From Escherichia coli (lineage in GTDB: Bacteria > Pseudomonadota > Gammaproteobacteria > Enterobacterales > Enterobacteriaceae): a stretch of 19,170 bases of DNA. The DNA lies in assembly GCF_003334255.1 (NCBI RefSeq), contig NZ_QOWU01000071.1; one strand, given 5' to 3'. Positions 297-13,591 of this stretch are shown here, piece after piece. The position numbers and the translations under genes were made by a program. The notes under the pieces are model-generated. The model ran no database searches, was not told the origin of the DNA, and was given only the letters and a program-made list of their open reading frames with translations. Every line of letters begins with the position of its first letter. Position 1 is the first letter of the stretch.

Positions 297-492
297 AATA
301 TCCGGGATATTGCAGGCAAATGTAGTCCATCTGCACCTTTGATGTGCAGTCCATCACCCGTTTAAACGCCTCCATGTAGTCATAACAGCCCTGCAATAAT
401 TGCGCGTCACCATCCTCAGTCAGAGGAAACCGGCTGGCGTAGTCATGAACTATTTTTGCCAGTTGTTGCTGCTCTGTGGTTAAGTCGATCAT
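292..492 (-). CDS. Hypothetical small protein (66 aa), translationally coupled downstream of tnpR
   Basis: ATGA start/stop overlap with tnpR (ATG at 492-490, tnpR stop at 491-489). Its stop codon lies inside the putative IS66 terminus, so the C-terminus may be altered. No family recognised. Confidence 0.45.
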   Translation of the reverse strand: MIDLTTEQQQLAKIVHDYASRFPLTEDGDAQLLQGCYDYMEAFKRVMDCTSKVQMDYICLQYPGYL

Positions 493-1064
493 TTTTGTCC
501 TCGTGAAAGCGTTCTATAAACTGTTGGCCGCGACACTGCGAACAGATCCGCCAGATCGCTGATCGAGTACTGGCCGGTTTCCCGCATGCGGCACAACTCT
601 TTTTGCTGCTTTTCAGACAGCTTAGGTTGTTTTCCCCGCAGTTTTCCCTTTGCCCGCGCAATCGCCATCCCTTCCCGGGTACGCAGACGTATCAGATCGC
701 CCTCAAACTCAGCAAAAGTGGCCAGCACATTGAAAAACATCTTCCCCACAGGGTCTGCTGGGTCGTAGAGACTGGTTCCCAGCGCCAGCTTCACACCCCT
801 GGCCTGTAGTGCATCCGCTATCTCACGTGCGTCAGGAACTGACCGCGCCAGACGGTCAAGCTTGGGAACAACCAGCGTGTCACCGCTGCGCACAGCGGCC
901 AGCGCCTGATCCAGTCCGGGCCGTTGCCGGTTTGAGCCGGTCAGCCCTTTATCAAGGTAAATCCGGTCCGGGGAGACGCCAAGTCTGACCAGCGTTTCCT
1001 GCTGTGCGGTTAAATCCTGTTTATCAGTAGAGCATCGGGCATACCCGATCCGTATTTCAGGCAT
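489..1064 (-). CDS. tnpR: Tn3-family serine recombinase (resolvase)
   Basis: 191 aa; N-terminal catalytic region IRIGYARCSTDKQDL, DRLARS motif, C-terminal helix-turn-helix (SISDLADLFAVSRPTVYR); divergent from tnpA as in Tn3-family transposons. Confidence 0.9.
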   Translation of the reverse strand: MPEIRIGYARCSTDKQDLTAQQETLVRLGVSPDRIYLDKGLTGSNRQRPGLDQALAAVRSGDTLVVPKLDRLARSVPDAREIADALQARGVKLALGTSLYDPADPVGKMFFNVLATFAEFEGDLIRLRTREGMAIARAKGKLRGKQPKLSEKQQKELCRMRETGQYSISDLADLFAVSRPTVYRTLSRGQK

Positions 1065-1212
1065 AAATGTGTACGTTTAAGGGGCCATGAAAGAGATTGA
1101 TACCGTACCAGTTATATGAGACAACGTCAGCAGTGATTTTCTCTGAAGCGCAAATTTAATTTTTACCGTCCGCAGAGCGATCCTCTTACGGACATGATTA
1201 ATCGGGGTCAGG
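1065..1212. promoter_or_regulatory. res-like region with divergent tnpR/tnpA promoters
   Basis: 148-bp intergenic region between divergent tnpR and tnpA containing inverted half-sites (GTCCG...CGGAC); position fits a resolution site. Subsites not mapped. Confidence 0.45.
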
Positions 1213-4200
1213 ATGACAACGCGTGGCAAAGCTACAGGCAAAAGTGAACGGCTGGCGGTTTTAAATAGCGCCGAGCAGGAGGCACTGTATGGTCTTCCTG
1301 ATTTCGATGATGCACAGCGACTGGAATTCCTGGCGCTGGAGGAATCAGAACTGGCGCTGGCCTGTAGTCGTCAGGGTCTTCACGCTCAAATTTATTGCAT
1401 CCTTCAGATCGCTTACTTTAAAGCCAAACACCTGTTTTTCCGCTTCGGATGGGGTGATGTTAAGGACGACAGTAACTTTGTGCTGAGCCGTTATTTTCAG
1501 GGTGAATCACTTCCGGAGCTGACTCTCACCAGGCACGAGCGCTATGCTCAACGCGAAAAAATCTGCTCACTGTACGGTTACCAACCGTGGTCATCTTCTC
1601 TGTCGCCACAGCTTGAACAGCAGGCAGCCAACATTGTTCACCGGGATGTAACCCCCGGCTTTGTTGCCACGGAGCTGATTATCTGGCTCAACGAACATAA
1701 AATTATCCGCCCCGGTTATACCACGCTTCAGGAGCTGGTAAGCCGGGTCCTTTCTGAAGAAAGGCAGCGTCTGGGACGTATACTGACGGAACAGCTTGAT
1801 GATGCAACTATTGCTGACCTGGGCAGACTGACTGAACGTGATGATACCCTTTCCCGGCTCGCAATCCTCAGGCAGGATGCGCGTGACTTTGGCTGGCGCC
1901 AGATGGTTCACGAACGGGAAAAGCGGGCTATCCTGGAGCCGCTGCACCATAAAGCCTGCGATATTTTGCCAGCACTGAATATTTCGCAGCAAAACCTGCT
2001 GTACTACGCCAGTCTGGCAAATTTCTATACCGTTTACGATCTCCGCAACCTGAAACCGGAGCAGACCCGCCTTTACCTGTTGTGTTATGCCTGGGTTCGC
2101 TATCGCCAGTTCAGTGACAACCTGGTGGATGCGATGTTTTTCCATATGAAACAGCTTGAGGATGAGAGCCGCAGCGTGGCCAGCCAACTCATGGCTGATA
2201 TGCAGGAAAAATACCGGCGCGAAACGTCTAAAATCGGGCGTCTGCTGTCGCTTTATGTTGATGACAGCGTTCCTGACCCCACCACCTTTGGTGAAGTCCG
2301 CCGCCGGGCCTGGAAAATAATGCCCAGGGAGACGCTGAAAACTACAGCACAACGTATGAGCGTGAAGCCCGTCAGCAGACTGGCGCTACAGTGGCAGGCC
2401 GTGGATGGCATGACGGCATTAATACGGCGTCACCTGCGACCATTATATCTTTCACTCGATCTCACCAGCGTGGTCCGGGACAGCCCGTGGGCAGAGGCGC
2501 TTAACTGGCTCAGAACGGTGTTCAGCAAAAAACAGACGCTTTTGCAGCGGCCACTTGAGGAGTGCCCGCAGGTAACGTTACCTGCGCGGCTGCGCCCGTA
2601 CCTGCTGGAATTCGGTGAGGATGGTGAGCCCACAGGCCTGAATGCCGGGCGTTATGAGTTCTGGCTCTATCGTCAGATAAGAAAGCGTTTTCAGGCGGGA
2701 GAATTCCACCTCAATAATAGCCTCCGGCACCGCCATCTTTCTGATGAACTGGTACCGGAAGGGGAACAGGCCACAGTGCTGGCTGAAATGAACATCCCGT
2801 TCCTGCAGAAGCCCATTAAAACACAGCTAAAAAAACTGGCATCCGAGCTGCACCGACAGTGGAAAGTGTTTAACCGTGAGCTGAAACAGGGGAAACTGAA
2901 ACATCTGGAATACGATAAAGAAACGCAGAAGCTGACCTGGCATAAATCGGTGGCCAGCCGTTATAAGTCGCAGAATAAGCGTTTTTATGAGCAACTGCCA
3001 TTCTGCGATGTGACCGACGTCTTCCGCTTTGTTAACGGGCAGTGTCGATTTCTTCCCGCCATGAAGCCGCTGCAACCCCGTTACGCCAAAAAAGAAGCTG
3101 ATGTAGACAGTCTGATGGCGGTCATCGTTGCCCAGGCGATGAACCATGGCAACCATGTGATGGCGCGAACCAGCGATATACCATTCCATGTGCTGGAGAC
3201 CACGTACGAACAGTACCTTCGTCTGGCGTCTCTGCTCACGGCCAATGACTGTATAACCGATGCTATAGAAGCGCTACCGGTTTTTCCGCTCTATTCGTTT
3301 GATCCGGAGACGCTTTATGGAGCTGTTGACGGGCAAAAATTTGGTGTTGAACGTCCGACAGTGAAAGCACGGTATTCACGTAAATATTTTGGTCGTGGTA
3401 AAGGCATGGTGGCCTACACGCTGCTGTGCAACCACATTCCAGTCAACGGATACCTGATTGGCACAAACGACTACGAAGGCCATCATGTATTTGACATCTG
3501 GTACCGCAATACCTCAGCAGTGAAACCCACGGCCATTACCGGTGACATGCACAGCATCAACAAAGCCAACTTTGCGATCCTGCACTGGTTTGGCCTTCGC
3601 TTTGAACCCCATTTTACTGGCCTTAACAAACAACTTCAGGAACTGTACTGCACCAGAGACACGTCAGCATATAAAAAATGCCTGATCCAGCCTGCCGGTC
3701 AGATTGACCTGGACCTTATCACCCGCGAAAAAAGTAATCTTAATCGCATCGTCGCTACGCTGGGGCTAAAAGAAATGACGCAGGGAACGCTGATCCGTAA
3801 GTTATGTACATATACTACGGCCAGCCCGACAAGACAGGCGGTATTTGAATACGATCGGCTGGTTCGCAGCATTTACACGCTGAAGTATCTGCGTGACCCG
3901 CAACTGGAACGCAATATCCGTCGTTCCCAGAACCGCATTGAATCTTATCACCAGCTGCGTGCAGCAGTCGCCAAAGTCGGCGGCAAGAAGGAGTTAACAG
4001 GGAAAAATGACATTGAAACGGACATCAGTAATCAGTGCGGACGGTTGATCTCCAACGCGATCGTTTATTACAACTCCGCGATCCTGTCACGGTTACTGGA
4101 ACGGCTGGAAGCCGAAGGTAACGAAAGGGGCATAGAGACTCTGACCCGGATATCGCCGGTGGCCTGGCAGCACATTTTGCTGAACGGGCATTATACATTT

Positions 4201-4260
4201 CAGAACACTAATGAAATTATTGACCTGGATGCTCTGGTTGTCGGACTAAAACTGGGGTAA
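1213..4260 (+). CDS. tnpA: Tn3-family DDE transposase
   Basis: 1015-aa ORF, the typical size for Tn3-family TnpA; stop codon lies inside the terminal inverted repeat as in Tn3. Confidence 0.92.
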   Translation: MTTRGKATGKSERLAVLNSAEQEALYGLPDFDDAQRLEFLALEESELALACSRQGLHAQIYCILQIAYFKAKHLFFRFGWGDVKDDSNFVLSRYFQGESLPELTLTRHERYAQREKICSLYGYQPWSSSLSPQLEQQAANIVHRDVTPGFVATELIIWLNEHKIIRPGYTTLQELVSRVLSEERQRLGRILTEQLDDATIADLGRLTERDDTLSRLAILRQDARDFGWRQMVHEREKRAILEPLHHKACDILPALNISQQNLLYYASLANFYTVYDLRNLKPEQTRLYLLCYAWVRYRQFSDNLVDAMFFHMKQLEDESRSVASQLMADMQEKYRRETSKIGRLLSLYVDDSVPDPTTFGEVRRRAWKIMPRETLKTTAQRMSVKPVSRLALQWQAVDGMTALIRRHLRPLYLSLDLTSVVRDSPWAEALNWLRTVFSKKQTLLQRPLEECPQVTLPARLRPYLLEFGEDGEPTGLNAGRYEFWLYRQIRKRFQAGEFHLNNSLRHRHLSDELVPEGEQATVLAEMNIPFLQKPIKTQLKKLASELHRQWKVFNRELKQGKLKHLEYDKETQKLTWHKSVASRYKSQNKRFYEQLPFCDVTDVFRFVNGQCRFLPAMKPLQPRYAKKEADVDSLMAVIVAQAMNHGNHVMARTSDIPFHVLETTYEQYLRLASLLTANDCITDAIEALPVFPLYSFDPETLYGAVDGQKFGVERPTVKARYSRKYFGRGKGMVAYTLLCNHIPVNGYLIGTNDYEGHHVFDIWYRNTSAVKPTAITGDMHSINKANFAILHWFGLRFEPHFTGLNKQLQELYCTRDTSAYKKCLIQPAGQIDLDLITREKSNLNRIVATLGLKEMTQGTLIRKLCTYTTASPTRQAVFEYDRLVRSIYTLKYLRDPQLERNIRRSQNRIESYHQLRAAVAKVGGKKELTGKNDIETDISNQCGRLISNAIVYYNSAILSRLLERLEAEGNERGIETLTRISPVAWQHILLNGHYTFQNTNEIIDLDALVVGLKLG

Positions 4261-5420: not shown

Positions 5421-6293
5421 TCAGGGTGAGGCAGTGGCCAGCCGTGTGTAGTTGTTGTTCCGCGACATTATCATGCGCTCCTTCACGCGACGGTCGATTT
5501 CGCGCTTCACGGCTTCCAGGCTTCCCCGGAAACGCCCTTCCGCAATTTCACGCGTCAACTGCCGTTTCACCAGGGTGACAATGTCCTGACGGGTCCGGCC
5601 CGCATCACGGCGCGCACGGGCACGTTTCATGCCGTGGGCCTTGCGCTCTGCCTGGTAACTGCGGAAACGCTCGCGCACAAAACGCCAGGCTCTCGCTATC
5701 AGTTCATCCATACCCAGCGCATCCAGCCCCTGCTTTTTGCGCAGCTTGTTTTCCCATTCCACGCGGCTGCGGCGTGCGGAAGCCACCGCCTCTTCAGAGA
5801 TATCGAGTGAGGCAAACAGTGCCGGCGTGAACGTGATGTCGGTCGGAATGTTACAGCCAATTGTCGGGTCGTATTCCGTCTGGTAGGTCATCAGCCCCAG
5901 CTCAGCCAGGAACTTCAGGGCACGGGTGGCACGGGTGATGGAGAGTTTCCCGGCCTCAGACTCCGTCGCCAGTCCGCACTCAATGGCCAGCGTGGTGATG
6001 GAGCACTGCACGCGGTTGGCCAGCGGGTCATAGTGGAAACACAGCCCCTGCAGCAGCGCATCAATCGCCCTTCGGCGCAGCACTGGCGGCATACGCCGGC
6101 GCAGGCCGCGCGAACGTGCATACGCCACATGCGCGGCAAAATCAAAACGGGAGGTGAAGCCCACGGCCTTTTCCATCAGTTTTTCGCAGAACTTCAGCGT
6201 TCCGGCATCTTCACGGGGTGTGAAGACCGGATTCGGGTTCTTTACCTGACGGTATGTGCTTTCAGTAAATGAGGTCTGGTTCAGGGCCGCCAC
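5421..6293 (-). CDS. repA: IncFII-type replication initiator RepA (RepA1)
   Basis: 290 aa; [86 protein letters not shown] and the C-terminus RLATASP match R1/R100 RepA1 as I recall it, along the whole length. GTG start. Confidence 0.92.
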
Positions 6294-6370
6294 AAGCTGT
6301 CGCTTATGGCGGGCACAGAATGCCGTGCGTTAATGCACTGCAAGGGGTTGAATCTCTGACACGGTTTCAT
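6281..6370 (-). CDS. Leader-peptide ORF (29 codons) overlapping the repA start (tap/repA6-like)
   Basis: ATG at 6370-6368; stop TGA at 6283-6281 lies 10 nt inside repA, as in IncFII translational coupling. Peptide sequence itself not recognised. Confidence 0.4.
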
Positions 6371-6456
6371 ATATACTTATCCCGTATTCTGTGAGGCCCC
6401 CACTATCTTTCTTGAGCCCGCCAAAGTTCATCGAAAGATAGTGGGGGTTTTCCTTT
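6365..6456 (+). ncRNA. CopA-like antisense RNA (5' end uncertain)
   Basis: Plus-strand hairpin with 15-bp stem CCCCCACTATCTTTC/GAAAGATAGTGGGGG (6396-6447) followed by TTTTCCTTT; antisense to the tap start/RBS region. Possible -35 TTGAAT (6348-6353) and -10 TATACT (6372-6377). Confidence 0.45.
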
Positions 6457-7129
6457 ATGGTCTTCTGAAACTTTTTTCAGCCTTCCGGCCCCGGCAAACA
6501 GCCGTCGTTTCTGCCATACATCCTGAATGCCTTATGGCGCATCCTGCCGTTTTCTGACTTTCCGGATCGCGAGGATCCCAAAAGCCACTGCATAACGATC
6601 CGCAATATACCTCGTTTCCACCGCTTTGAAAAGCCGACATGATTTCTCAGGGTTACAGTTGCCCTCTTTAACTCCCCGAAAAAGCGTCGTTTTTTTGAAC
6701 TCTGTCAAAAAAATGAACAATTCCGCAAACGATCTTTTATGCTGTGTTTTTCATCATTTTTAGTAGAAGAGATCGCGTTATTTTTTTAAACGATCTAATC
6801 GTCCACAAATCGCATTTGACTCAGAACAATATACTGCTTTATTTGATGTAACAATCTATTCAACTGCTTATTTGGACTATTGCCACATATGCAACCTTGT
6901 GTAGCATGTTTATCAGCCATTAATCCTGTTTGGGTAATTGGCAGTTTTCGCCCGCCTCGAAACTGTCAAAAAGGCTTACAAGAGTGCACAACGCATGTGC
7001 CTGTCAGAACTGCAGGCCGGGCTGAACGAGGGTCAGCCGCTGTTTCCGACACATGCTTTATGTATTCGCCGTTCACAACAACATCGAAGCCCCCCTGCGG
7101 GGATCGATTTTCGCGGAGCGTTCCGGATT

Positions 7130-7636
7130 TTGAATATCAGTGAATTACATCAACGCAACTGGTATCTGGCACAGTACATTGCTGCCGGTAAAAATCGCGA
7201 ACATCTCTTTTCCTGGCTTTCCGAACAACACGTCCTTCCCTGGACACCCCTGATACTGAAAAAGGTCCGCCGTACGGATAAAGTCTGTGGTTACCGTCGT
7301 CATATACACGCCGTGTTTCCCGGTTACTTCTTCCTGAAAGCAGACCCCGAACGCCACGCTTTCACTCACCTGCGCCGTCACAGTGCCTTTCTGGACTTCG
7401 TGAAAATGGCCGGTGAAATCAAAACCGTCAGGGAGGATATCGTTCAGTCCCTGATGAAAGTGTACCCGGATCCTGCGCTCAATCCGGCAGCCAGGGAGGA
7501 GCTGGATGCTGCCTCCACCCTCTGGCTGACAAAAGCGCGTTACCAGTACCTCCTCCGGCTTGATGCACAGCCTCTGCCGGAGTCGAGGATCGCCCTGCTC
7601 CTGCACCTGGTATCTGATGACGGAGCGTTGACATGA
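7130..7636 (+). CDS. NusG/RfaH-paralog (NGN domain) transcription antitermination-like protein; start codon uncertain
   Basis: NWYLAQY...HAVFPGYFFLKADPE...SAFLDFVKMAG aligns by eye with the RfaH N-terminal domain (WYLLYC...EPLFPNYLFVEFDPE...VSHFVRFG). The ORF is open from 6938 (TTG); 7130 TTG follows a GGAG at 7115-7118. No clear KOW motif in the C-terminal part. Confidence 0.65.
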   Translation: MNISELHQRNWYLAQYIAAGKNREHLFSWLSEQHVLPWTPLILKKVRRTDKVCGYRRHIHAVFPGYFFLKADPERHAFTHLRRHSAFLDFVKMAGEIKTVREDIVQSLMKVYPDPALNPAAREELDAASTLWLTKARYQYLLRLDAQPLPESRIALLLHLVSDDGALT

Positions 7637-7663
7637 AAATTGCTGTCTTCATTTGACGACTTT

Positions 7664-7690
7664 CCCGGCCTTTATGGCCGGGCTTTTTTT
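7664..7690 (+). terminator. Intrinsic terminator T1
   Basis: CCCGGCC-TTTAT-GGCCGGG followed by CTTTTTTT. Confidence 0.55.
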
Positions 7691-7696
7691 CCCCAA

Positions 7697-7752
7697 TGCC
7701 CGGCACCGGTGACACCTGCGTGTACGGAGAGCGGCTGCCGGGCATTTTTTTT
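7697..7752 (+). terminator. Intrinsic terminator T2 (long hairpin with 9-bp closing stem) immediately upstream of the next RBS
   Basis: TGCCCGGCA ... TGCCGGGCA followed by eight T; ends 1 nt before the AGGA RBS of the gene at 7765. Confidence 0.5.
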
Positions 7753-7764
7753 CAGGACATCGTT

Positions 7765-8280
7765 ATGACCATTCAATCCCCGGAAAACCCTGTCATTCAG
7801 TTACTGGAGAATATGCTTGAAGCGCTCTCCACCTCCCCGGACAGCATCAACAATGAACGACGTCGCCGGCGCTTCCTGCTGAACTGGCTTGATTCCGCCC
7901 GACAGATGAGTGAGTTCAGGGGGATGCCTGAAGAGTTCACCGCCCTGCGCAAACTGCTGGCCACCAATACGGACATACCGGTAGAGAACACGCTGAAATC
8001 ACTGCTGGAAAGTGGCCACAACGCAGCACTGTATGACCTGTACCGCTTCCGAGCAGCGCTTGCCACGTGCAGGAGTCTGGGATGGCAGATTGGCACGTGC
8101 GCATGGAATGACCAGTTACTGAGTGAGACACTTTCCCGCGCACAGACCGGGAAACGTCATATCCTGCAGCTGAACAGCACCGGGGACACCTTTTCCACCA
8201 CGGGCAGAATGATCAGACCGGTGGCATTTTCATTAATCCATCCGGCCACCATCAACACGTCTGAGGTTGAAGAGATATGA
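7765..8280 (+). CDS. Hypothetical soluble protein (171 aa)
   Basis: ATG at 7765 with AGGA 8 nt upstream; longer ORF from 7696 rejected because its start lies inside terminator T2. ATGA overlap with the next gene. Confidence 0.6.
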   Translation: MTIQSPENPVIQLLENMLEALSTSPDSINNERRRRRFLLNWLDSARQMSEFRGMPEEFTALRKLLATNTDIPVENTLKSLLESGHNAALYDLYRFRAALATCRSLGWQIGTCAWNDQLLSETLSRAQTGKRHILQLNSTGDTFSTTGRMIRPVAFSLIHPATINTSEVEEI

Positions 8281-8810
8281 CCGGCATTGGTAACTGGATA
8301 GTCAGCGTGCTGATTGGATATGCTGCTGGCCCCCTGTGGGCTGCCACCCACCTGGGAACAAGCCAGGACCGGGGAAGCCGGGCCGCTTACGGTTACATCT
8401 ACCTGATAGACAGCATGATCAGACCGCTGGTGATGGTATTCGGGTTCTTTTTTGCATCGGTCTCCATCGTGGCCGGCGGCACCATTCTGAATGCGTTGTT
8501 TGGCGCGGCTCTGGTTAATGTGCAGGCGGACTCCCTTACGGGGTTATTCAGCATCGCTGGATTTTTGCTGATTTATGCCCGAGTCTGTACCACGCTGGTT
8601 GCGGCCGTTTTTGCGCTTCAGGCTTATCTGCCTGACCATGTGATTAATTTTCTGGGCGGACGTGACGGCGTTAATATGCTGGGGAATATGGCATCTTCGG
8701 TCAAAGATATTATTGCTGGCGGAAATACCAATATGCGCAGAACACCTGGCGTACGTGAAGAAAAACTGAAAAATATTAAAGGAGATGATAAAGACGGAAT
8801 AAAACAATAA
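8277..8810 (+). CDS. Hypothetical integral membrane protein (177 aa)
   Basis: Several hydrophobic segments (IVSVLIGYAAGPLWAA, LVMVFGFFFASVSIVAGGTILNALFGAAL, LFSIAGFLLIYARVCTTLVAAVFAL), hydrophilic lysine-rich tail; coupled to upstream gene. Confidence 0.6.
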   Translation: MTGIGNWIVSVLIGYAAGPLWAATHLGTSQDRGSRAAYGYIYLIDSMIRPLVMVFGFFFASVSIVAGGTILNALFGAALVNVQADSLTGLFSIAGFLLIYARVCTTLVAAVFALQAYLPDHVINFLGGRDGVNMLGNMASSVKDIIAGGNTNMRRTPGVREEKLKNIKGDDKDGIKQ

Positions 8811-8850
8811 AATGAAAATATCTAAAAACCAATAAAACAGTATTGCCATA

Positions 8851-8884
8851 TTCACCTGAAGAGATTAAAATATACTCAGGTGAA
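8851..8884. promoter_or_regulatory. Perfect 9-bp inverted repeat (TTCACCTGA / TCAGGTGAA) flanking a TATACT element just upstream of the RBS of the 8899 gene
   Basis: Seen directly; candidate operator or leader hairpin. Confidence 0.3.
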
Positions 8885-8898
8885 TATGGAGGTTTATT

Positions 8899-9546
8899 AT
8901 GAGTACAACAAAAAACAGATATCCTTCCTGGTGGGCATATTATTACCTTGTTCGCAATGCGTATTTCATATTTGGCATACCATGCTTATTATTTTATGCT
9001 TTTTTCGGAACACTAATTGTTCATGATTCAGCCTTATCTCAAACAATGGATTTTGTTTTTGCATATGGATGCTGGGCATTAATAATTATCCCATTACTCT
9101 GGCTATATCTGAGAACCAGAGCGAAGAAAAAGAAAGTCCTGCAGGTTGTTCAGCAGATAAAAGAAAGCAGTCTCTTTGCGCCGACCAGCGATTATGAGCA
9201 ACTGTCATTCTCGAAGAGTTGTTATTTCGGGATCGACATTAAAAACGGCACCATGCTGTATGTGCGTATTTATCCAAACAATGTGATGGATGTGATTGGT
9301 CTGGATATTCACAACTTTACCCGCACGGTTGCTGAGGACGGCAAACTGGAAATCCATACCACCTATGTGAGTCTTCCGATGATCCCACTGGAAATCTCCG
9401 GCATCTCATCAAGGACGCTGGCCAACACCATGCACACCATGGCTGCACGTGGATATGAGTACAAGGAACGTTTCCCGCAGATGATCCGGTATCGGGTTAA
9501 AGAGTGGGAAAAAGTTGCCGGTGTACCTGTTGCAGAAGTGTTTTAA
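8899..9546 (+). CDS. Hypothetical membrane-anchored protein (215 aa); AT-rich
   Basis: GGAGG 8 nt upstream of ATG; two N-terminal hydrophobic helices then a soluble domain; last 35 codons duplicated downstream. Confidence 0.6.
   Translation: MSTTKNRYPSWWAYYYLVRNAYFIFGIPCLLFYAFFGTLIVHDSALSQTMDFVFAYGCWALIIIPLLWLYLRTRAKKKKVLQVVQQIKESSLFAPTSDYEQLSFSKSCYFGIDIKNGTMLYVRIYPNNVMDVIGLDIHNFTRTVAEDGKLEIHTTYVSLPMIPLEISGISSRTLANTMHTMAARGYEYKERFPQMIRYRVKEWEKVAGVPVAEVF
9433..9546 (+). repeat. Direct repeat copy 1 (3' end of the 215-aa gene)
   Basis: About 110 bp near-identical to 9938-10051. Confidence 0.8.
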
Positions 9547-9562
9547 GACGGTTATCTCATAC

Positions 9563-9824: not shown

Positions 9825-9937
9825 AATAATTTCCTCTTTATAAAATTAACAAAGATACTCATTTAGATGTATAAACATCTGTATAATAAAATAACTCTTG
9901 CTAAACAAGAAATTAAAATCTTGCATCCACAGTCTCG

Positions 9938-10051
9938 CACACCATGGCGGCACGCGGATATGAGTACAAGGAACGTTTCCCGCAGATGATCCGGTATCGG
10001 GTTAAAGAGTGGGAAAAAGTTGCCGGTGTTCCTGTTGCAGAAGTATTTTGA
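9938..10051 (+). repeat. Direct repeat copy 2 (orphan copy of the gene 3' end)
   Basis: Differs from copy 1 at four positions plus the stop codon (TAA vs TGA); all four fall on third codon positions and are synonymous. Confidence 0.8.
9944..10051 (+). CDS. Orphan 35-codon ORF identical in protein sequence to the C-terminus of the 215-aa protein
   Basis: ATG-initiated MAARGYEYKERFPQMIRYRVKEWEKVAGVPVAEVF; no obvious Shine-Dalgarno, so expression is uncertain. Confidence 0.3.
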   Translation: MAARGYEYKERFPQMIRYRVKEWEKVAGVPVAEVF

Positions 10052-10083
10052 GGTAGCTATCAACTGTTAGACGATAATCCGTC

Positions 10084-10206: not shown

Positions 10207-10488
10207 ATGCCATCTGCAACACAAACTGCCCGACTGGAAGCAAGAATCAGCACAGAACTGCATGCTATGCTGAAACGCGCTGCAGAAATCCAGGGACGCA
10301 CTATGACCGATTTTATCATTTCTGCCGTTCAGGATGCGGCACAACGCGCTATAGAACAAACCGATATCATCCGACTGTCCCGGACAGATCAGGAAATTTT
10401 TGCTCAGGCATTACTGTCACCAACAGAACCTAATGATGCGCTCAAACGGGCCTTTAAACGCCGTAATAATATTCTATACACAAAATAA
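10207..10488 (+). CDS. DUF1778-type (ribbon-helix-helix) antitoxin of a GNAT toxin
   Basis: 93 aa; AGGAGG RBS; ...LEARISTELHAMLKRAAEIQGRTMTDFIISAV... is typical of TacA/KacA-type antitoxins; immediately upstream of the GNAT gene. Confidence 0.85.
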   Translation: MPSATQTARLEARISTELHAMLKRAAEIQGRTMTDFIISAVQDAAQRAIEQTDIIRLSRTDQEIFAQALLSPTEPNDALKRAFKRRNNILYTK

Positions 10489-10493
10489 ATATA

Positions 10494-10982
10494 ATGTTTC
10501 AGCTGAAACCATTTAACAGCACATATGACAGAACCTCATTTTTATGTGGTTCTGATGCTCTGGACCGTTATATAAAAGAGCATGTCACACAGGATATTCG
10601 ACGACGCATCGCGGCCTGCTTTGTTGCTATAGATAACGATCATCGTATCATCGGATACTATACGTTATCAGCGGCCAGTATATTATTAACTGACTTACCT
10701 GAGCATTTGAGAAAAAAGCTACCACGATATCCTACCATCCCGGCTATTCGTATGGGACGCCTGGCAGTAAGTCTGTCATCAAAAGGAACAGGACTTGGTG
10801 GGACACTTTTAGCTGATGCGCTATATCGTGCATACACATCTGAAATTGCAGCATATGCGCTGATTGTTGATGCAAAAGATGACACGGCAGTCTCATTTTA
10901 CAAACATTATGGATTTATGACGCTCCCGGAGTCAGGGCGAACTTTATTCATGCCACTGGCATCATTATCTGCAATAGAATAA
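10494..10982 (+). CDS. GNAT-family acetyltransferase toxin (TacT/KacT/AtaT-type)
   Basis: 162 aa acetyltransferase fold (…RMGRLAVSLSSKGTGLGGTLLADAL…FYKHYGFM…), 5 bp after the antitoxin stop. Confidence 0.85.
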   Translation: MFQLKPFNSTYDRTSFLCGSDALDRYIKEHVTQDIRRRIAACFVAIDNDHRIIGYYTLSAASILLTDLPEHLRKKLPRYPTIPAIRMGRLAVSLSSKGTGLGGTLLADALYRAYTSEIAAYALIVDAKDDTAVSFYKHYGFMTLPESGRTLFMPLASLSAIE

Positions 10983-11553
10983 CCAGAATAAATCCGGGTA
11001 AAAAAGGGCGCATTGAGGTCAGCCTTCGCAACAATCCGGCGGCAGATTCCCTGCCGCCGTGTTGCCCGTTAACGTTTAACTTCGTAGGCTAACGTTGCCA
11101 CAAGCACCGTATTTCCCTGCTCGATACGAAATCCGCAAAGCGAATCCCTCACCATCCAGACAAAACACAGTATCGTCACACAGAGGACAATTAACATTGT
11201 TAAAAACGTTCGTTGTAGCATCGCAGCCCCTCCATTGCCTTTCGGCCGTTATCGGGCTACTATAATGTTGTCTAGGCATTACAGTAGAGCCCTGGGTTGA
11301 TTGATAAAAAAATCGCCTGGGGCTTCTGCTACATGCCGTCCACAAAACGCTTTCGGCATACAGCCTCAAGCGCCCGCAGCTATTCTAATCGTTTTTCAGT
11401 CTGCCACAATCGTTTTCCATCTAATGACATGTAATGCGCAACGGTATTTTTACGGGAAACAACACGGCAAGGATTCCCGGAACACGTCCATTATTTTATG
11501 GTTACGGACATCATGTTAAATCAGAAAGTAATAATGACCTGAAAGGAAATGGT

Positions 11554-11888: not shown

Positions 11889-13436
11889 TTATTTTTCTGA
11901 TTCAGCATTTCCGGTCAGTACAGGCTCTTCTGGCAAAGACATTACCGGAACGTCACGTTCGCCATTGAATACAGAAACACTTTCGGTGAAACCATTCTGT
12001 AACAAAGAAAAACTTAACGGCAGATTTTTGGTTTGTATCCCTGTGATCCATTGAAAAATCTCGGGAAAACGACGGGCGCTGATATGCACATGATTGAGGC
12101 GGTGCTCAGTAATATCACTTGCCATCATCATGAGAGGCACATCGTATCCCGAACGCAAACCTGGCGCATGATGCACAGGGGTGCTGTCTGAACTGACGGA
12201 TTGCCCATGATCAGAAAAATACAGCATGGCAAAATCATCGCCATGCTCTGTCGTCATGTTATAAATTGCCTGAAGAAACCGATCCAGCTTAAGCAATGTT
12301 GATAAATAACAGGATACTTTATTTCCGAATAATTCCCTGAACGGCTGTGCATCATTAAAAAGTCTGTCACAGGGATTAGGATGGGATCCCAGCATATGAA
12401 TGAAAATCACTTTTGGAGAAGACGAATTAACAGCTTCCCTGACATACTGAAGCATATCTTCATCATCAATGCGACGGGAAGAAGAGTTCCCTTCCTTAAG
12501 AAAATATTTCTTATCCGCACTGGCGGCGATGACAGAAATCAGCGTATCATGTCGCCCTAAAGAGCCCTGATTTGATATCCACCACGTTTCATATCCGGCT
12601 TTTCTGGCAAGCGTAACAATATTATTACCCGGATTACCTGTTTCAGTGTAATCAAGAGTCAGTGTTCTGCTGAGTGAACCTGTCGTATTCGGAGCAGCGG
12701 AGAAATACCCATTAATAAATATACCCGGAGCAGAGTTCAGCCATGGTGTTGTCGGCAAAGGATACCCATAAACAGAAAGATAATCCCGTCTGACACTTTC
12801 ACCAATTACGATAATTATAGTTTTATATTTCTTCTCCACACTCACAATATCCCATGAGTCTTTCTGATTGTTTTTCAGCGATTCATATCGCATCATTTCT
12901 TCTCTGGTTTCAGCTATCCCCGTTATTACATTCGTAACCATACGTTTTGGCCATGCATTTACTGACAATACGATAAAGAACAACAGAAAGATAAATCCCC
13001 GGTGGCTTTTTTCACGCTTACGCCAGAACCAGAATGTAAAAGCAGCAATGACCAGTGAAACAATAAAATAAAAAACAGGTATGCCTGTGATAAATTCACC
13101 TGCCTCATTTATATTTGTCTGCATTACAGACGCAATAAAACTGTTGTTTATTTTTCCGTAAATCATTCCAACCGGAGCATAGAATGCACTTAACAAAAGA
13201 AAGATACAGACACACGTCGCTGAAATAACATTCCGCCGCCCCAACGACATCATCAGGAACAATATAAGTACATTCCCTGTGGCGTTTTTCACTGTATATC
13301 CGCAGCACCATGTAACAAGTACAGAAAACAACAGATAAATCAGTGACTCTTTACACCACAACATAAAATAAAACTGTTTTGCCATCTCAAAAGCACATTT
13401 GGATTTTTCTTTAATACGAGACACGCCAGTCATTTT
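11889..13436 (-). CDS. Phosphoethanolamine-transferase-like membrane enzyme (sulfatase/alkaline-phosphatase superfamily, EptA/MCR/OpgE-like); start uncertain
   Basis: N-terminal hydrophobic helices followed by a catalytic domain with IIIVIGESVRRDYLSVYGYP, KVIFIHMLGSHPNP and AMLYFSDHGQS, resembling the VVGETARADHVSFNGY / MLHQMGNHGP / MLYVSDHGES blocks of MCR/EptA. AT-rich. ORF open to 13445 (TTG); first ATG at 13436. Confidence 0.75.
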   Translation of the reverse strand, partial: KMTGVSRIKEKSKCAFEMAKQFYFMLWCKESLIYLLFSVLVTWCCGYTVKNATGNVLILFLMMSLGRRNVISATCVCIFLLLSAFYAPVGMIYGKINNSFIASVMQTNINEAGEFITGIPVFYFIVSLVIAAFTFWFWRKREKSHRGFIFLLFFIVLSVNAWPKRMVTNVITGIAETREEMMRYESLKNNQKDSWDIVSVEKKYKTIIIVIGESVRRDYLSVYGYPLPTTPWLNSAPGIFINGYFSAAPNTTGSLSRTLTLDYTETGNPGNNIVTLARKAGYETWWISNQGSLGRHDTLISVIAASADKKYFLKEGNSSSRRIDDEDMLQYVREAVNSSSPKVIFIHMLGSHPNPCDRLFNDAQPFRELFGNKVSCYLSTLLKLDRFLQAIYNMTTEHGDDFAMLYFSDHGQSVSSDSTPVHHAPGLRSGYDVPLMMMASDITEHRLNHVHISARRFPEIFQWITGIQTKNLPLSFSLLQNGFTESVSVFNGERDVPVMSLPEEPVLTGNAESEK

Positions 13437-13591
13437 CCTGTACAAAAACAGACAATCATTTCAACGCATGGATATTTATATGAAACAGCTCACAAAAATA
13501 CCCTGCTCTGTCTAGCAAGATTACATATTATCAGGTTTTGTGTTTACAGCAACTGCTCCCCGGACCAGATTATTCGCATAACCCGATGAAT

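What the first reader, a model, noticed from the sequence alone, without database searches (positions are those of the whole stretch)
7130..7636. NGN-domain protein lacks a recognisable KOW domain
The N-terminal roughly 100 residues align by eye with the RfaH/NusG NGN domain, but the C-terminal 60 residues (…VYPDPALNPAAREELDAASTLWLTKARYQYLLRLDAQPLPESRIALLLHLVSDDGALT) show none of the glycine-rich beta-barrel KOW signature. The ORF is also open for another 64 codons upstream with no obvious start signal, so gene boundaries are unclear. This may be a truncated or unusual NusG paralog.
Basis: partly seen in the sequence, partly recalled or inferred. Interest (0 to 1): 0.45.

Follow-up and report, generated by a model that had tools for sequence, protein, structure and literature searches.

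The report
TraB, plasmid RfaH-like transfer activator
The gene is traB, the already known NusG/RfaH-family activator of conjugation genes on IncI-type plasmids; its odd C-terminal end is most likely a diverged, all-helical version of RfaH's KOW domain, not a missing or broken one.

Summary
Window 7130-7636 (+) encodes a 168-aa protein with a significant NGN domain and no KOW profile hit. The frame is open for 64 codons upstream.

The gene is traB of an IncK2/Z (I-complex) E. coli plasmid. It is 66% identical to TraB of R64 and is annotated "NusG family" in hundreds of records.

The start is the TTG at 7130. Relatives have GTG or ATG at that codon, and the upstream extension is broken by indels and stops.

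The C-terminal 60 residues are conserved across the family, so the protein is not truncated. AlphaFold2 predicts helices packed on the NGN. The best structural matches are autoinhibited RfaH and the IncX3 PrfaH crystal structure. A profile-profile comparison aligns TraB 129-165 with RfaH 114-150, the KOW region (P about 1e-3). The glycines and the last beta-strand are lost.

Three context features fit an RfaH-like, operon-specific antiterminator:
- a conserved leader motif, GGGGATCG-N6-GCGGAGCGTT, resembling ops minus one T;
- a position-conserved intrinsic terminator between traB and traC;
- about 44 kb of co-directional pil/tra genes downstream in intact relatives.

In this plasmid about 42 kb of that regulon is deleted. 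The gene is known and ordinary. Whether the C-terminal domain still switches fold is open.

The parts
7130..7636 (+). traB coding sequence: TTG start, TGA stop, 168 aa. A NusG/RfaH-family regulator of I-complex plasmids.
   Evidence: ORF. PGAP CDS WP_024192912.1 at the same coordinates in the identical record. 66% identity over 163 aa without gaps to R64 TraB. Family alignment A1.
7157..7453 (+). NGN domain (residues 10-108), including the invariant FPGYFF motif (residues 63-68) that aligns with RfaH FPNYLF.
   Evidence: Pfam PF02357 at E 9.6e-5, with 23/25 relatives matching. PDB 9ik0 and RfaH alignments. AF2 strands and helices 10-100.
7484..7615 (+). All-helical C-terminal domain: predicted helices 119-129, 135-146 and 150-162. 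Residues 129-165 (nt 7514-7624) align with RfaH 114-150, the KOW region. Invariant R153 aligns with RfaH R138.
   Evidence: AF2 model, pLDDT 82.6. Foldseek best hits are autoinhibited RfaH 5ond_A, 8pfg, 8pib and PrfaH 9ik0 over about 154-160 columns. hhalign P 9e-4, with 1 of 200 column shuffles reaching the score. NCBIfam RfaH models align residues 9-162 to positions 2-147.
6938..7129 (+). In-frame open stretch upstream of traB (64 codons). It is not coding; it is part of the traB leader.
   Evidence: Open codons upstream: 64 in the window, 46 in L002, 17 in L003/L004, 6, 19, 2 and 14 in L005-L008. Indels of 1 and 6 nt between IncK and IncI1.
7099..7122 (+). Conserved leader motif GGGGATCG (7099-7106) followed by (C)GCGGAGCGTT (7112-7122), 8-31 nt before the start codon. 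This is the candidate ops-like loading/pause site. It contains the Shine-Dalgarno GGAG (7115-7118).
   Evidence: Conserved in 7 diverged loci where the flanks are not. The combined motif occurs once in the sampled 104 kb of the intact relative pSH273-2, in the traB leader. Mini-hairpin CGC-GGA-GCG is predicted, like ops GC-GGTA-GC, but the energies are not above shuffles. This is an inference, not shown.
7001..7015 (+). Conserved block CTGTCAGAACTGCAG in the traB leader/promoter region. Function unknown.
   Evidence: Invariant between IncK2/Z and IncI1 and largely kept in L005, L007 and L009. Unique in pSH273-2.
7664..7690 (+). Intrinsic terminator between traB and traC: 7-bp all-GC stem CCCGGCC/GGCCGGG, loop TTTAT, then C and T7.
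   Evidence: Terminator scan. RNA fold -18.8 kcal/mol, z -3.4, 0 of 200 shuffles as stable. A GC hairpin plus T-run lies at the same place in 8 of 9 loci, with five different stem sequences.
7765..8277 (+). traC, 3'-truncated. It matches residues 9-205 of the 254-aa PGAP TraC model of an intact IncK2/Z plasmid.
   Evidence: tblastn 100% over TraC_K residues 9-205 at 7687-8277. blastn joint. No Pfam or NCBIfam family.
8277..8810 (+). 3' fragment of traY (DotA/TraY C-terminus) fused at the deletion joint 8277/8278.
   Evidence: NCBIfam TIGR04346 DotA_TraY, E 2.4e-39, profile positions 526-656 of 656. blastn: window 8277-9547 equals pSH273-2 65929-64660.

Best explanation
Window 7130-7636 is traB, the plasmid-borne RfaH-like (specialised NusG) regulator of I-complex conjugative plasmids.

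It has a normal NGN domain. Its C-terminal domain descends from the RfaH-type KOW domain but has lost the KOW glycines and the last beta-strand. That domain is predicted to sit as a helical hairpin, plus one extra helix, on the NGN, as in autoinhibited RfaH and in the crystal structure of IncX3 PrfaH.

Proposed mechanism (inferred):
1. RNA polymerase transcribing the traB leader exposes a conserved non-template-strand element (GGGGATCG...GCGGAGCGTT, an ops-like mini-hairpin).
2. TraB is recruited there and its C-terminal lid is displaced.
3. The NGN then stays on the elongation complex.
4. This lets the complex read through the intrinsic terminator just after traB.
5. It also suppresses termination across the roughly 44-kb co-directional traC-pil-tra array. 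This gives positive autoregulation of transfer.

Shown here: identity, domain content, start codon, family conservation, the predicted fold, the conserved leader motif and terminator, and the gene order. Taken from the literature: homologues in R64 and pESI are required for transfer and pil transcription, and PrfaH works through an ops-like site in its own 5'UTR. Not shown: recruitment, antitermination, and the fate of the C-terminal domain.

In this particular plasmid the target genes are deleted, so TraB is an intact regulator without its regulon.
For: Identity:
- 100% DNA match to IncK2/Z plasmids with PGAP 'NusG family protein' at the same coordinates.
- 66% identity to R64 TraB.

NGN domain.

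C-terminal domain (CTD):
- Conserved in 25 relatives; invariant L133, Y138, L141, P150, S152, R153, L157, L160.
- NCBIfam RfaH models align residues 9-162 to profile positions 2-147 at E 7e-10. E. coli RfaH 2oug aligns 10-163 to 3-148.
- CTD-only hhalign to an alignment of 19 glycine-motif RfaH C-terminal domains: P 9e-4, score 19.2 against 8.3+-2.1 for column shuffles.
- CTD-only HMM scores an RfaH-type representative at 10.7 bits against 3.9 for the best reversed decoy.
- AF2 model pLDDT 82.6 with helices 119-129, 135-146, 150-162.
- Foldseek top hits are autoinhibited RfaH (5ond_A, E 7e-9, 154 columns, TM 0.78 on target), 8pfg/8pib, and PrfaH 9ik0.

Context:
- traB heads traC-pil... in L002-L009 and R64.
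- traB to excA are co-directional over about 44 kb in pSH273-2.
- Terminator after traB in 8 of 9 loci with different stems.
- Conserved leader motif, unique in the plasmid.

Literature:
- PrfaH crystal structure has an NGN plus a two-helix CTD. Its ops-like site lies at -42..-25 of its own 5'UTR. A form lacking the last 14 residues is still active. R64 TraB is named as a homologue (PMC11880322).
- pESI TraB activates pil genes and is needed for conjugation (PMC5013300).
Against: - TraB is far below the curated RfaH cut-offs (39 against 124 bits).
- CTD homology is weak when taken alone. The CTD profile finds no RfaH in the PDB by HMMER, only chance hits at E>=0.09. The hhalign probability is only 22%.
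- AlphaFold2 has seen RfaH structures, so a helical CTD docked on the NGN may be partly learned.
- The isolated CTD is predicted helical only at low confidence (pLDDT 64.5, pTM 0.34).
- The ops-like motif overlaps the Shine-Dalgarno sequence, which alone would explain part of its conservation. Its hairpin energy is not better than shuffles.
- No canonical ops is present.
- L009 lacks a clear terminator.
- RfaH is mainly an anti-Rho, anti-pausing factor. Strong read-through of an intrinsic terminator is assumed here, not demonstrated.
- traC is also required in R64, by my recollection of the abstract of Kim et al. 1993 (the paper could not be retrieved). Its role is unexplained.
Confidence: 0.75

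Rival explanations
1. The C-terminal 60 residues are not KOW-derived. They would be an unrelated helical module that replaced the KOW domain, for example to bind TraC or another plasmid partner. TraB would then be an 'NGN-only plus new domain' factor.
For: No Pfam KOW hit in 25 of 25 family members. The CTD-only profile finds no RfaH or NusG in the PDB. There are no glycines at the KOW motif positions, and an extra helix 119-129 is absent from RfaH. traC is also required in R64 (my recollection of the Kim et al. 1993 abstract; the paper could not be retrieved), and TraC has no known domain.
Against: Both RfaH HMMs and the RfaH PDB sequences give a collinear alignment through the tail. The profile-profile P is 9e-4 and only 1 of 200 shuffles reaches the score. 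The E-x-R-S/I-x-L-L-L-x-L segment is shared with RfaH, including R153 aligned to RfaH R138. The full-length model superposes on autoinhibited RfaH and PrfaH.
Confidence: 0.13
2. TraB is a conventional transcription initiation activator. It would bind double-stranded DNA at the traB/traC/pil promoters, and the NGN fold would be incidental.
For: The literature calls it only a 'positive regulator' of pil/tra. Conserved blocks such as CTGTCAGAACTGCAG upstream could be operator sites.
Against: The NGN RNAP-binding motif FPGYFF is invariant. There is no helix-turn-helix or other DNA-binding domain. The closest solved relative, PrfaH, binds single-stranded non-template DNA in its own 5'UTR. A conserved terminator sits right after the gene.
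Confidence: 0.08
3. The ORF is a decayed or truncated NusG/RfaH pseudogene, or an annotation artefact.
For: TTG start codon. Its regulon is deleted in this plasmid. A 153-aa antisense ORF overlaps it.
Against: The protein has the same length and ends as 25 relatives down to 42% identity. It is 98% identical to clusters with hundreds of members. Homologues are genetically required for transfer.
Confidence: 0.02

Closest known systems
TraB of IncI1 plasmid R64 and of pESI (I-complex traB)
   Same: Orthologous gene. It is 66% identical over 163 aa without gaps and occupies the same position between repA and traC/pil. It has the same conserved C-terminal sequence. R64 and pESI TraB are required for transfer and pil transcription.
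   Different: IncK2/Z lacks traA upstream. This copy uses TTG and ends 9 residues earlier than R64 TraB. Its downstream regulon is deleted here.
PrfaH (ActX) of IncX3 plasmids, PDB 9ik0
   Same: Both are plasmid-encoded RfaH-like activators placed at the head of the T4SS operon. Both have an NGN plus a glycine-less helical-hairpin CTD. PrfaH is the best PDB sequence hit (E 1.4e-7) and a top structural hit. A conserved G-rich motif lies in the gene's own 5'UTR in both.
   Different: Only the NGN aligns at sequence level (residues 10-109). The leader motif differs in sequence. TraB has an extra helix 119-129, and traC is a co-required gene. The TraB mechanism is untested.
E. coli RfaH (PDB 2oug, 5ond; TIGR01955/NF006534)
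   Same: NGN with the FPxYxF RNAP-binding motif. Collinear alignment over residues 10-163 against 3-148. Predicted closed state with the CTD hairpin on the NGN. Shared E-x-R-x-x-LLL-x-L segment.
   Different: - 39 bits against a cut-off of 124.
- KOW glycines G121/G124 are replaced, and the region equivalent to RfaH 154-162 (last beta-strand) is absent.
- The ops-contacting HTTT/RGV region is replaced by the family-specific RRHSAF.
- Encoded in cis at its target operon rather than as a stand-alone chromosomal gene.
- No canonical ops.
Housekeeping NusG
   Same: NGN fold.
   Different: No beta-barrel KOW. The NusG model scores only 13 bits. Plasmid-borne and operon-specific.

Membership tests
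NusG/Spt5 superfamily | NGN domain (Pfam PF02357) | tested here: met
   E 9.6e-5 for residues 10-108, with 23 of 25 relatives at E<=1e-3. Structural hits to NusG NGN domains.
NusG/Spt5 superfamily | C-terminal KOW beta-barrel with glycine motif (Pfam PF00467) | tested here: not met
   No hit in TraB or in 25 of 25 relatives, even at E<=0.1. No strands are predicted in the CTD. Control: E. coli RfaH itself reaches only E 0.034.
RfaH (NCBIfam NF006534 / TIGR01955 equivalogs) | Score above the curated cut-off | tested here: not met
   39.0 and 36.7 bits against cut-offs of 124 and 144.5. TraB is not an RfaH orthologue.
RfaH-like specialised NusG paralogs | C-terminal domain folded as a helical hairpin that covers the RNAP-binding face of the NGN (autoinhibited state) | tested here: inconclusive
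   This fold is predicted by AF2 (pLDDT 82.6), and the model superposes on 5ond, 8pfg, 8pib and 9ik0. It is a prediction only, and AF2 may have learned the RfaH state.
RfaH-like specialised NusG paralogs | Refolding of the CTD to a beta-barrel that binds ribosomal protein S10 | not testable with these tools
   Glycines and the last strand are missing. The isolated CTD is predicted helical at low confidence. Needs NMR or CD.
RfaH-like specialised NusG paralogs | Recruitment by an ops-like non-template-strand element in the target operon leader | tested here: inconclusive
   No canonical ops is present. A conserved and unique GGGGATCG-N6-GCGGAGCGTT lies in the traB leader. It overlaps the Shine-Dalgarno sequence, and its hairpin is not significant.
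Plasmid TraB/PrfaH group of conjugation activators | Gene located at the head of the pilus/T4SS operon of a conjugative plasmid | tested here: met
   traB-traC-pilI/L/M/N order in L002-L009 and R64. In the window only traC' remains.
Plasmid TraB/PrfaH group of conjugation activators | Required for conjugative transfer and for pil/tra transcription | not testable with these tools
   Reported for the R64 and pESI homologues (PMC11880322, PMC5013300). It cannot apply to this plasmid, whose T4SS genes are deleted.

The most novel reading that the evidence does not exclude
The TraB-type C-terminal domain, and perhaps those of most plasmid RfaH-like proteins, may be a former fold-switching KOW domain that has become fixed in the helical state. 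Among 119 full-length representatives found with the TraB profile, 101 lack the KOW glycine motif. Such a domain would keep the autoinhibitory 'lid' role and ops-type gating. It would have lost the beta-barrel state, and with it ribosome (S10) coupling. That would make it an 'alpha-monomorphic' counterpart of the recently proposed beta-monomorphic RfaH homologues.
Probability: 0.3. Interest if true: 0.6.

Novelty: already known. Interest (0 to 1): 0.25.

Why it matters
TraB-type regulators sit at the top of the transfer cascade of IncI/K/B/O/Z plasmids, which are major carriers of ESBL genes. Understanding how they work is relevant to blocking conjugation.

For annotation, the result is simple. 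The gene is correctly bounded at 7130-7636 and is a known family member. The missing KOW signature is a family trait, not damage.

The only open scientific point is whether this glycine-less tail, which also lacks the last strand, can still refold. That question bears on how metamorphic domains evolve.

Tried and rejected
- Canonical ops (GGCGGTAGNNTG) search in the window, up to 2 mismatches: 16 hits against 13 expected, none in the traB leader. The exact core GGCGGTAG in 13 fetched loci gave none on the tra strand near traB.
- Pfam KOW on the protein and on all family members: nothing.
- CTD-only profile against PDB sequences: only chance hits to flavivirus M protein, E>=0.09.
- Isolated-CTD AlphaFold2 run, to see whether a beta-barrel appears: helical, but low confidence, so uninformative about fold switching.
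- Search for traA (a LuxR-type gene upstream of traB in IncI1, L005 and L009) in the window: absent.
- TraC against Pfam and NCBIfam: no family.
- The R64 traABCD paper (PMC204969) is not held.
- One literature search with prefix matching returned only unrelated 'trabecular' papers.
- P0017 has no contig on record.
- DNA mini-hairpin energies for the leader motif are no better than shuffles, as for ops itself.
- The pseudogene or truncation reading was rejected on family conservation.

Full report
**Observation.** The ORF listing shows one long + strand frame, 6938..7636 (232 aa), whose last 57 residues are the quoted peptide. The frame from the TTG at 7130 gives 168 aa, so 64 codons are open upstream. 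[quoted passage not shown]

**Identity and source.** Window 6300-8300 is 100% identical to E. coli plasmids typed IncK2/Z. About 1,700 I-complex plasmids match at lower identity. PGAP annotates 7130-7636 as 'transcription termination/antitermination NusG family protein'. The product is 66% identical, without gaps over 163 residues, to the protein encoded just upstream of traC-traD-pilI in R64, which is TraB. The literature states that R64 TraB is required for transfer and is a homologue of the IncX activator PrfaH (PMC11880322). The pESI homologue activates pil transcription and is needed for conjugation (PMC5013300). A protein search found 50 relatives; the full-length ones are 165-181 aa.

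**Start codon.** In a DNA alignment of IncK2/Z and IncI1-type loci, the codon at 7130 is TTG or GTG. The sequence upstream differs by 1-nt and 6-nt indels that change the frame. Five more distant loci have ATG at the homologous codon. The in-frame open stretch upstream is 64 codons here but only 17, 17, 6, 19, 2 and 14 codons in L003-L008. All family proteins begin M-N/D-I-E/S. The upstream extension is therefore a chance open frame in a leader, and the gene starts at 7130. Some gene callers do use an ATG at 6995, giving the 213-aa entries.

**The C-terminal 60 residues.**
- *Conservation.* The tail is not a truncation. The family consensus is LMKxYPDPxLNPxAxxELxAASxxWLTKxQYQYLLxLExxxxPxSRISLLLxLV....GF. 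Residues L133, Y138, L141, P150, S152, R153, L157 and L160 are invariant, and most members end within two residues of this one.
- *KOW test.* No member matches Pfam KOW (0 of 25). Its KOW match is only E 0.034 over residues 112-128.
- *Full-length sequence alignment.* The NCBIfam RfaH models align TraB residues 9-162 to profile positions 2-147 of 162 (E 7e-10, far below the curated cut-off). E. coli RfaH chains in the PDB align 10-163 to 3-148.
- *CTD-only profile comparison.* I compared the TraB family tail with the C-terminal domains of 19 glycine-motif RfaH sequences. TraB 129-165 (STLWLTKARYQYLLRLDAQPLPESRIALLLHLVSDDG) aligned to RfaH 114-150 ([37 protein letters not shown]). P was 9e-4 and the score 19.2, against 8.3+-2.1 for 200 column shuffles, one of which reached the score. 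The KOW glycines are replaced. The family ends about where RfaH residue 153 lies, so the last strand of the barrel is absent. The invariant R153 falls on RfaH R138.
- *CTD-only HMM.* It scores a true RfaH-type representative at 10.7 bits against 3.9 for the best reversed decoy.
- *Counter-evidence.* The same tail profile finds no RfaH in the PDB by plain HMMER. Sequence evidence for common descent is moderate, not strong.

**Structure.** AlphaFold2 with the 25-sequence family alignment gives pLDDT 82.6 and pTM 0.80. It predicts an NGN domain at residues 10-100 and helices at 102-111, 119-129, 135-146 and 150-162. Foldseek against the PDB ranks autoinhibited E. coli RfaH first (5ond_A: E 7e-9, 154 aligned columns, TM 0.78 on the target, rmsd 2.8). 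Next come autoinhibited RfaH on the ops-paused complex (8pfg, 8pib) and the IncX3 PrfaH crystal structure (9ik0). NusG chains and active RfaH chains align only over about 100 NGN columns. PrfaH is described as an NGN plus 'two longer antiparallel alpha-helices'. The isolated tail is again predicted helical with no strands, but at low confidence (pLDDT 64.5). That says little about whether a beta state exists. Among 119 full-length representatives recovered by a TraB profile search of 1.8 billion proteins, only 18 carry a KOW glycine motif. A glycine-less tail therefore looks usual for this plasmid-associated group.

**How it probably works.**
- *Gene order.* In intact relatives traB is followed by traC and the pil genes. 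In the IncK2/Z plasmid pSH273-2, every gene from traB to excA lies on one strand over about 44 kb.
- *Terminator.* An intrinsic terminator sits 28 nt after the traB stop, at 7664-7690. It has a 7-bp GC stem and T7, dG -18.8 kcal/mol, with 0 of 200 shuffles as stable. A GC hairpin plus T-run occupies the same intergenic position in 8 of 9 loci, with five different stem sequences. This argues for selection on the structure.
- *Leader motif.* In the leader, seven diverged loci share GGGGATCG and, 6 nt later, GCGCGGAGCGTT, ending 8-10 nt before the start codon. The second block equals the E. coli ops core GGCGGTAGCGTG with the T removed. It can form a GC-stem mini-hairpin as ops does. Variants GCGAAGC and GCGAGAGC in two loci keep the stem.
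- *Uniqueness.* The combined motif occurs once in the sampled 104 kb of pSH273-2, in the traB leader.
- *Precedent.* PrfaH is recruited by an ops-like non-template-strand hairpin at -42..-25 of its own 5'UTR, and a form lacking the last 14 residues is still active.
- *Inference.* TraB loads on RNA polymerase in its own leader. It then carries the polymerase through the terminator and down the long transfer operon.
- *Caveats.* The motif contains the Shine-Dalgarno GGAG. The hairpin energies are not above shuffles. No biochemical data exist for TraB.

**State in this plasmid.** blastn shows a joint at 8277/8278. To the left is traC up to codon about 205 of 254. To the right are the last 177 codons of traY, followed by excA. 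About 41.9 kb of pil, shufflon and traE-traX present in pSH273-2 are missing. This fits the MOB-suite call 'mobilizable' with no mating-pair formation type. TraB here is intact but has lost its targets.

**Comparison and verdict.** This is a member of the I-complex TraB group. It works most like PrfaH and RfaH, but it is not an RfaH orthologue, since the curated cut-off is not met. It does not have a canonical KOW domain. Reviews already note that plasmids carry resident RfaH-like factors in tra operons (PMC7593976, PMC7819879). The 2025 PrfaH paper counts 45% of plasmid nusG-family genes in I-complex plasmids. The finding is therefore real but already explained, and I score interest low.

What I did not find in the papers I read is a description of three things: the TraB tail as a KOW remnant without glycines and without the last strand, the position-conserved terminator, and the leader motif. 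These are modest additions.

The one open, interesting reading is that the tail is locked in the helical fold. A 2026 preprint describes the opposite, beta-monomorphic RfaH homologues (PMC13015549). I give the alpha-locked reading about 0.3.

Noticed in passing
window 8277-8278 (joint); 7765-8277 traC', 8277-8810 'traY, 8899-9546 excA: A deletion of about 41.9 kb, relative to the intact IncK2/Z plasmid pSH273-2, fuses truncated traC to the last 177 codons of traY. It removes pil, the shufflon and traE-traX. The plasmid is typed mobilizable, not conjugative.
   Followed up: yes
window 7001-7015 and about 7040-7075: Blocks CTGTCAGAACTGCAG, CTG(C/T)TTC(A/C)G and TATTCGCC in the traB leader are conserved between IncK2/Z, IncI1 and more distant loci. 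No sigma-70 consensus scan hit falls on them. They may be a promoter or an operator; their function is unexplained.
   Followed up: partly
window 7145-7606 (-): A 153-aa antisense ORF lies entirely inside traB. It is most likely a by-product of the codon pattern of traB and was not examined.
   Followed up: no
window 9432-9556 and 9937-10061: A 125-nt direct repeat (93% identity) duplicates the 3' end of excA. The copies flank a segment of about 380 nt that carries a small ORF, annotated 'HEAT repeat domain-containing protein', on the minus strand.
   Followed up: partly
window 11889-13445 (-): A plasmid-borne phosphoethanolamine transferase. It is only distantly related to CptA/EptA (101 bits against a cut-off of 404) and very far from the MCR families (<=27 bits). 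A DUF2569 protein lies next to it. Its role is unknown.
   Followed up: partly
window 489-4260 and 5421-6293: A Tn3-family transposase (1213-4260, +) and a resolvase (489-1064, -) are inserted next to the IncFII-type repA (5421-6293, -). The window spans the origin of the deposited circular record.
   Followed up: no
window 10207-10982 and about 11076-11228 (-): A DUF1778/GNAT type II toxin-antitoxin pair and a Hok/Gef toxin gene lie downstream of excA, according to the annotation of the identical record.
   Followed up: no
L005 3453-3737, L009 2885-3634, L003 1109-1396: Upstream of traB, other I-complex-like plasmids carry a LuxR/GerE-type gene (traA; PAS-GerE in L009). The IncK2/Z backbone lacks it.
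   Followed up: partly
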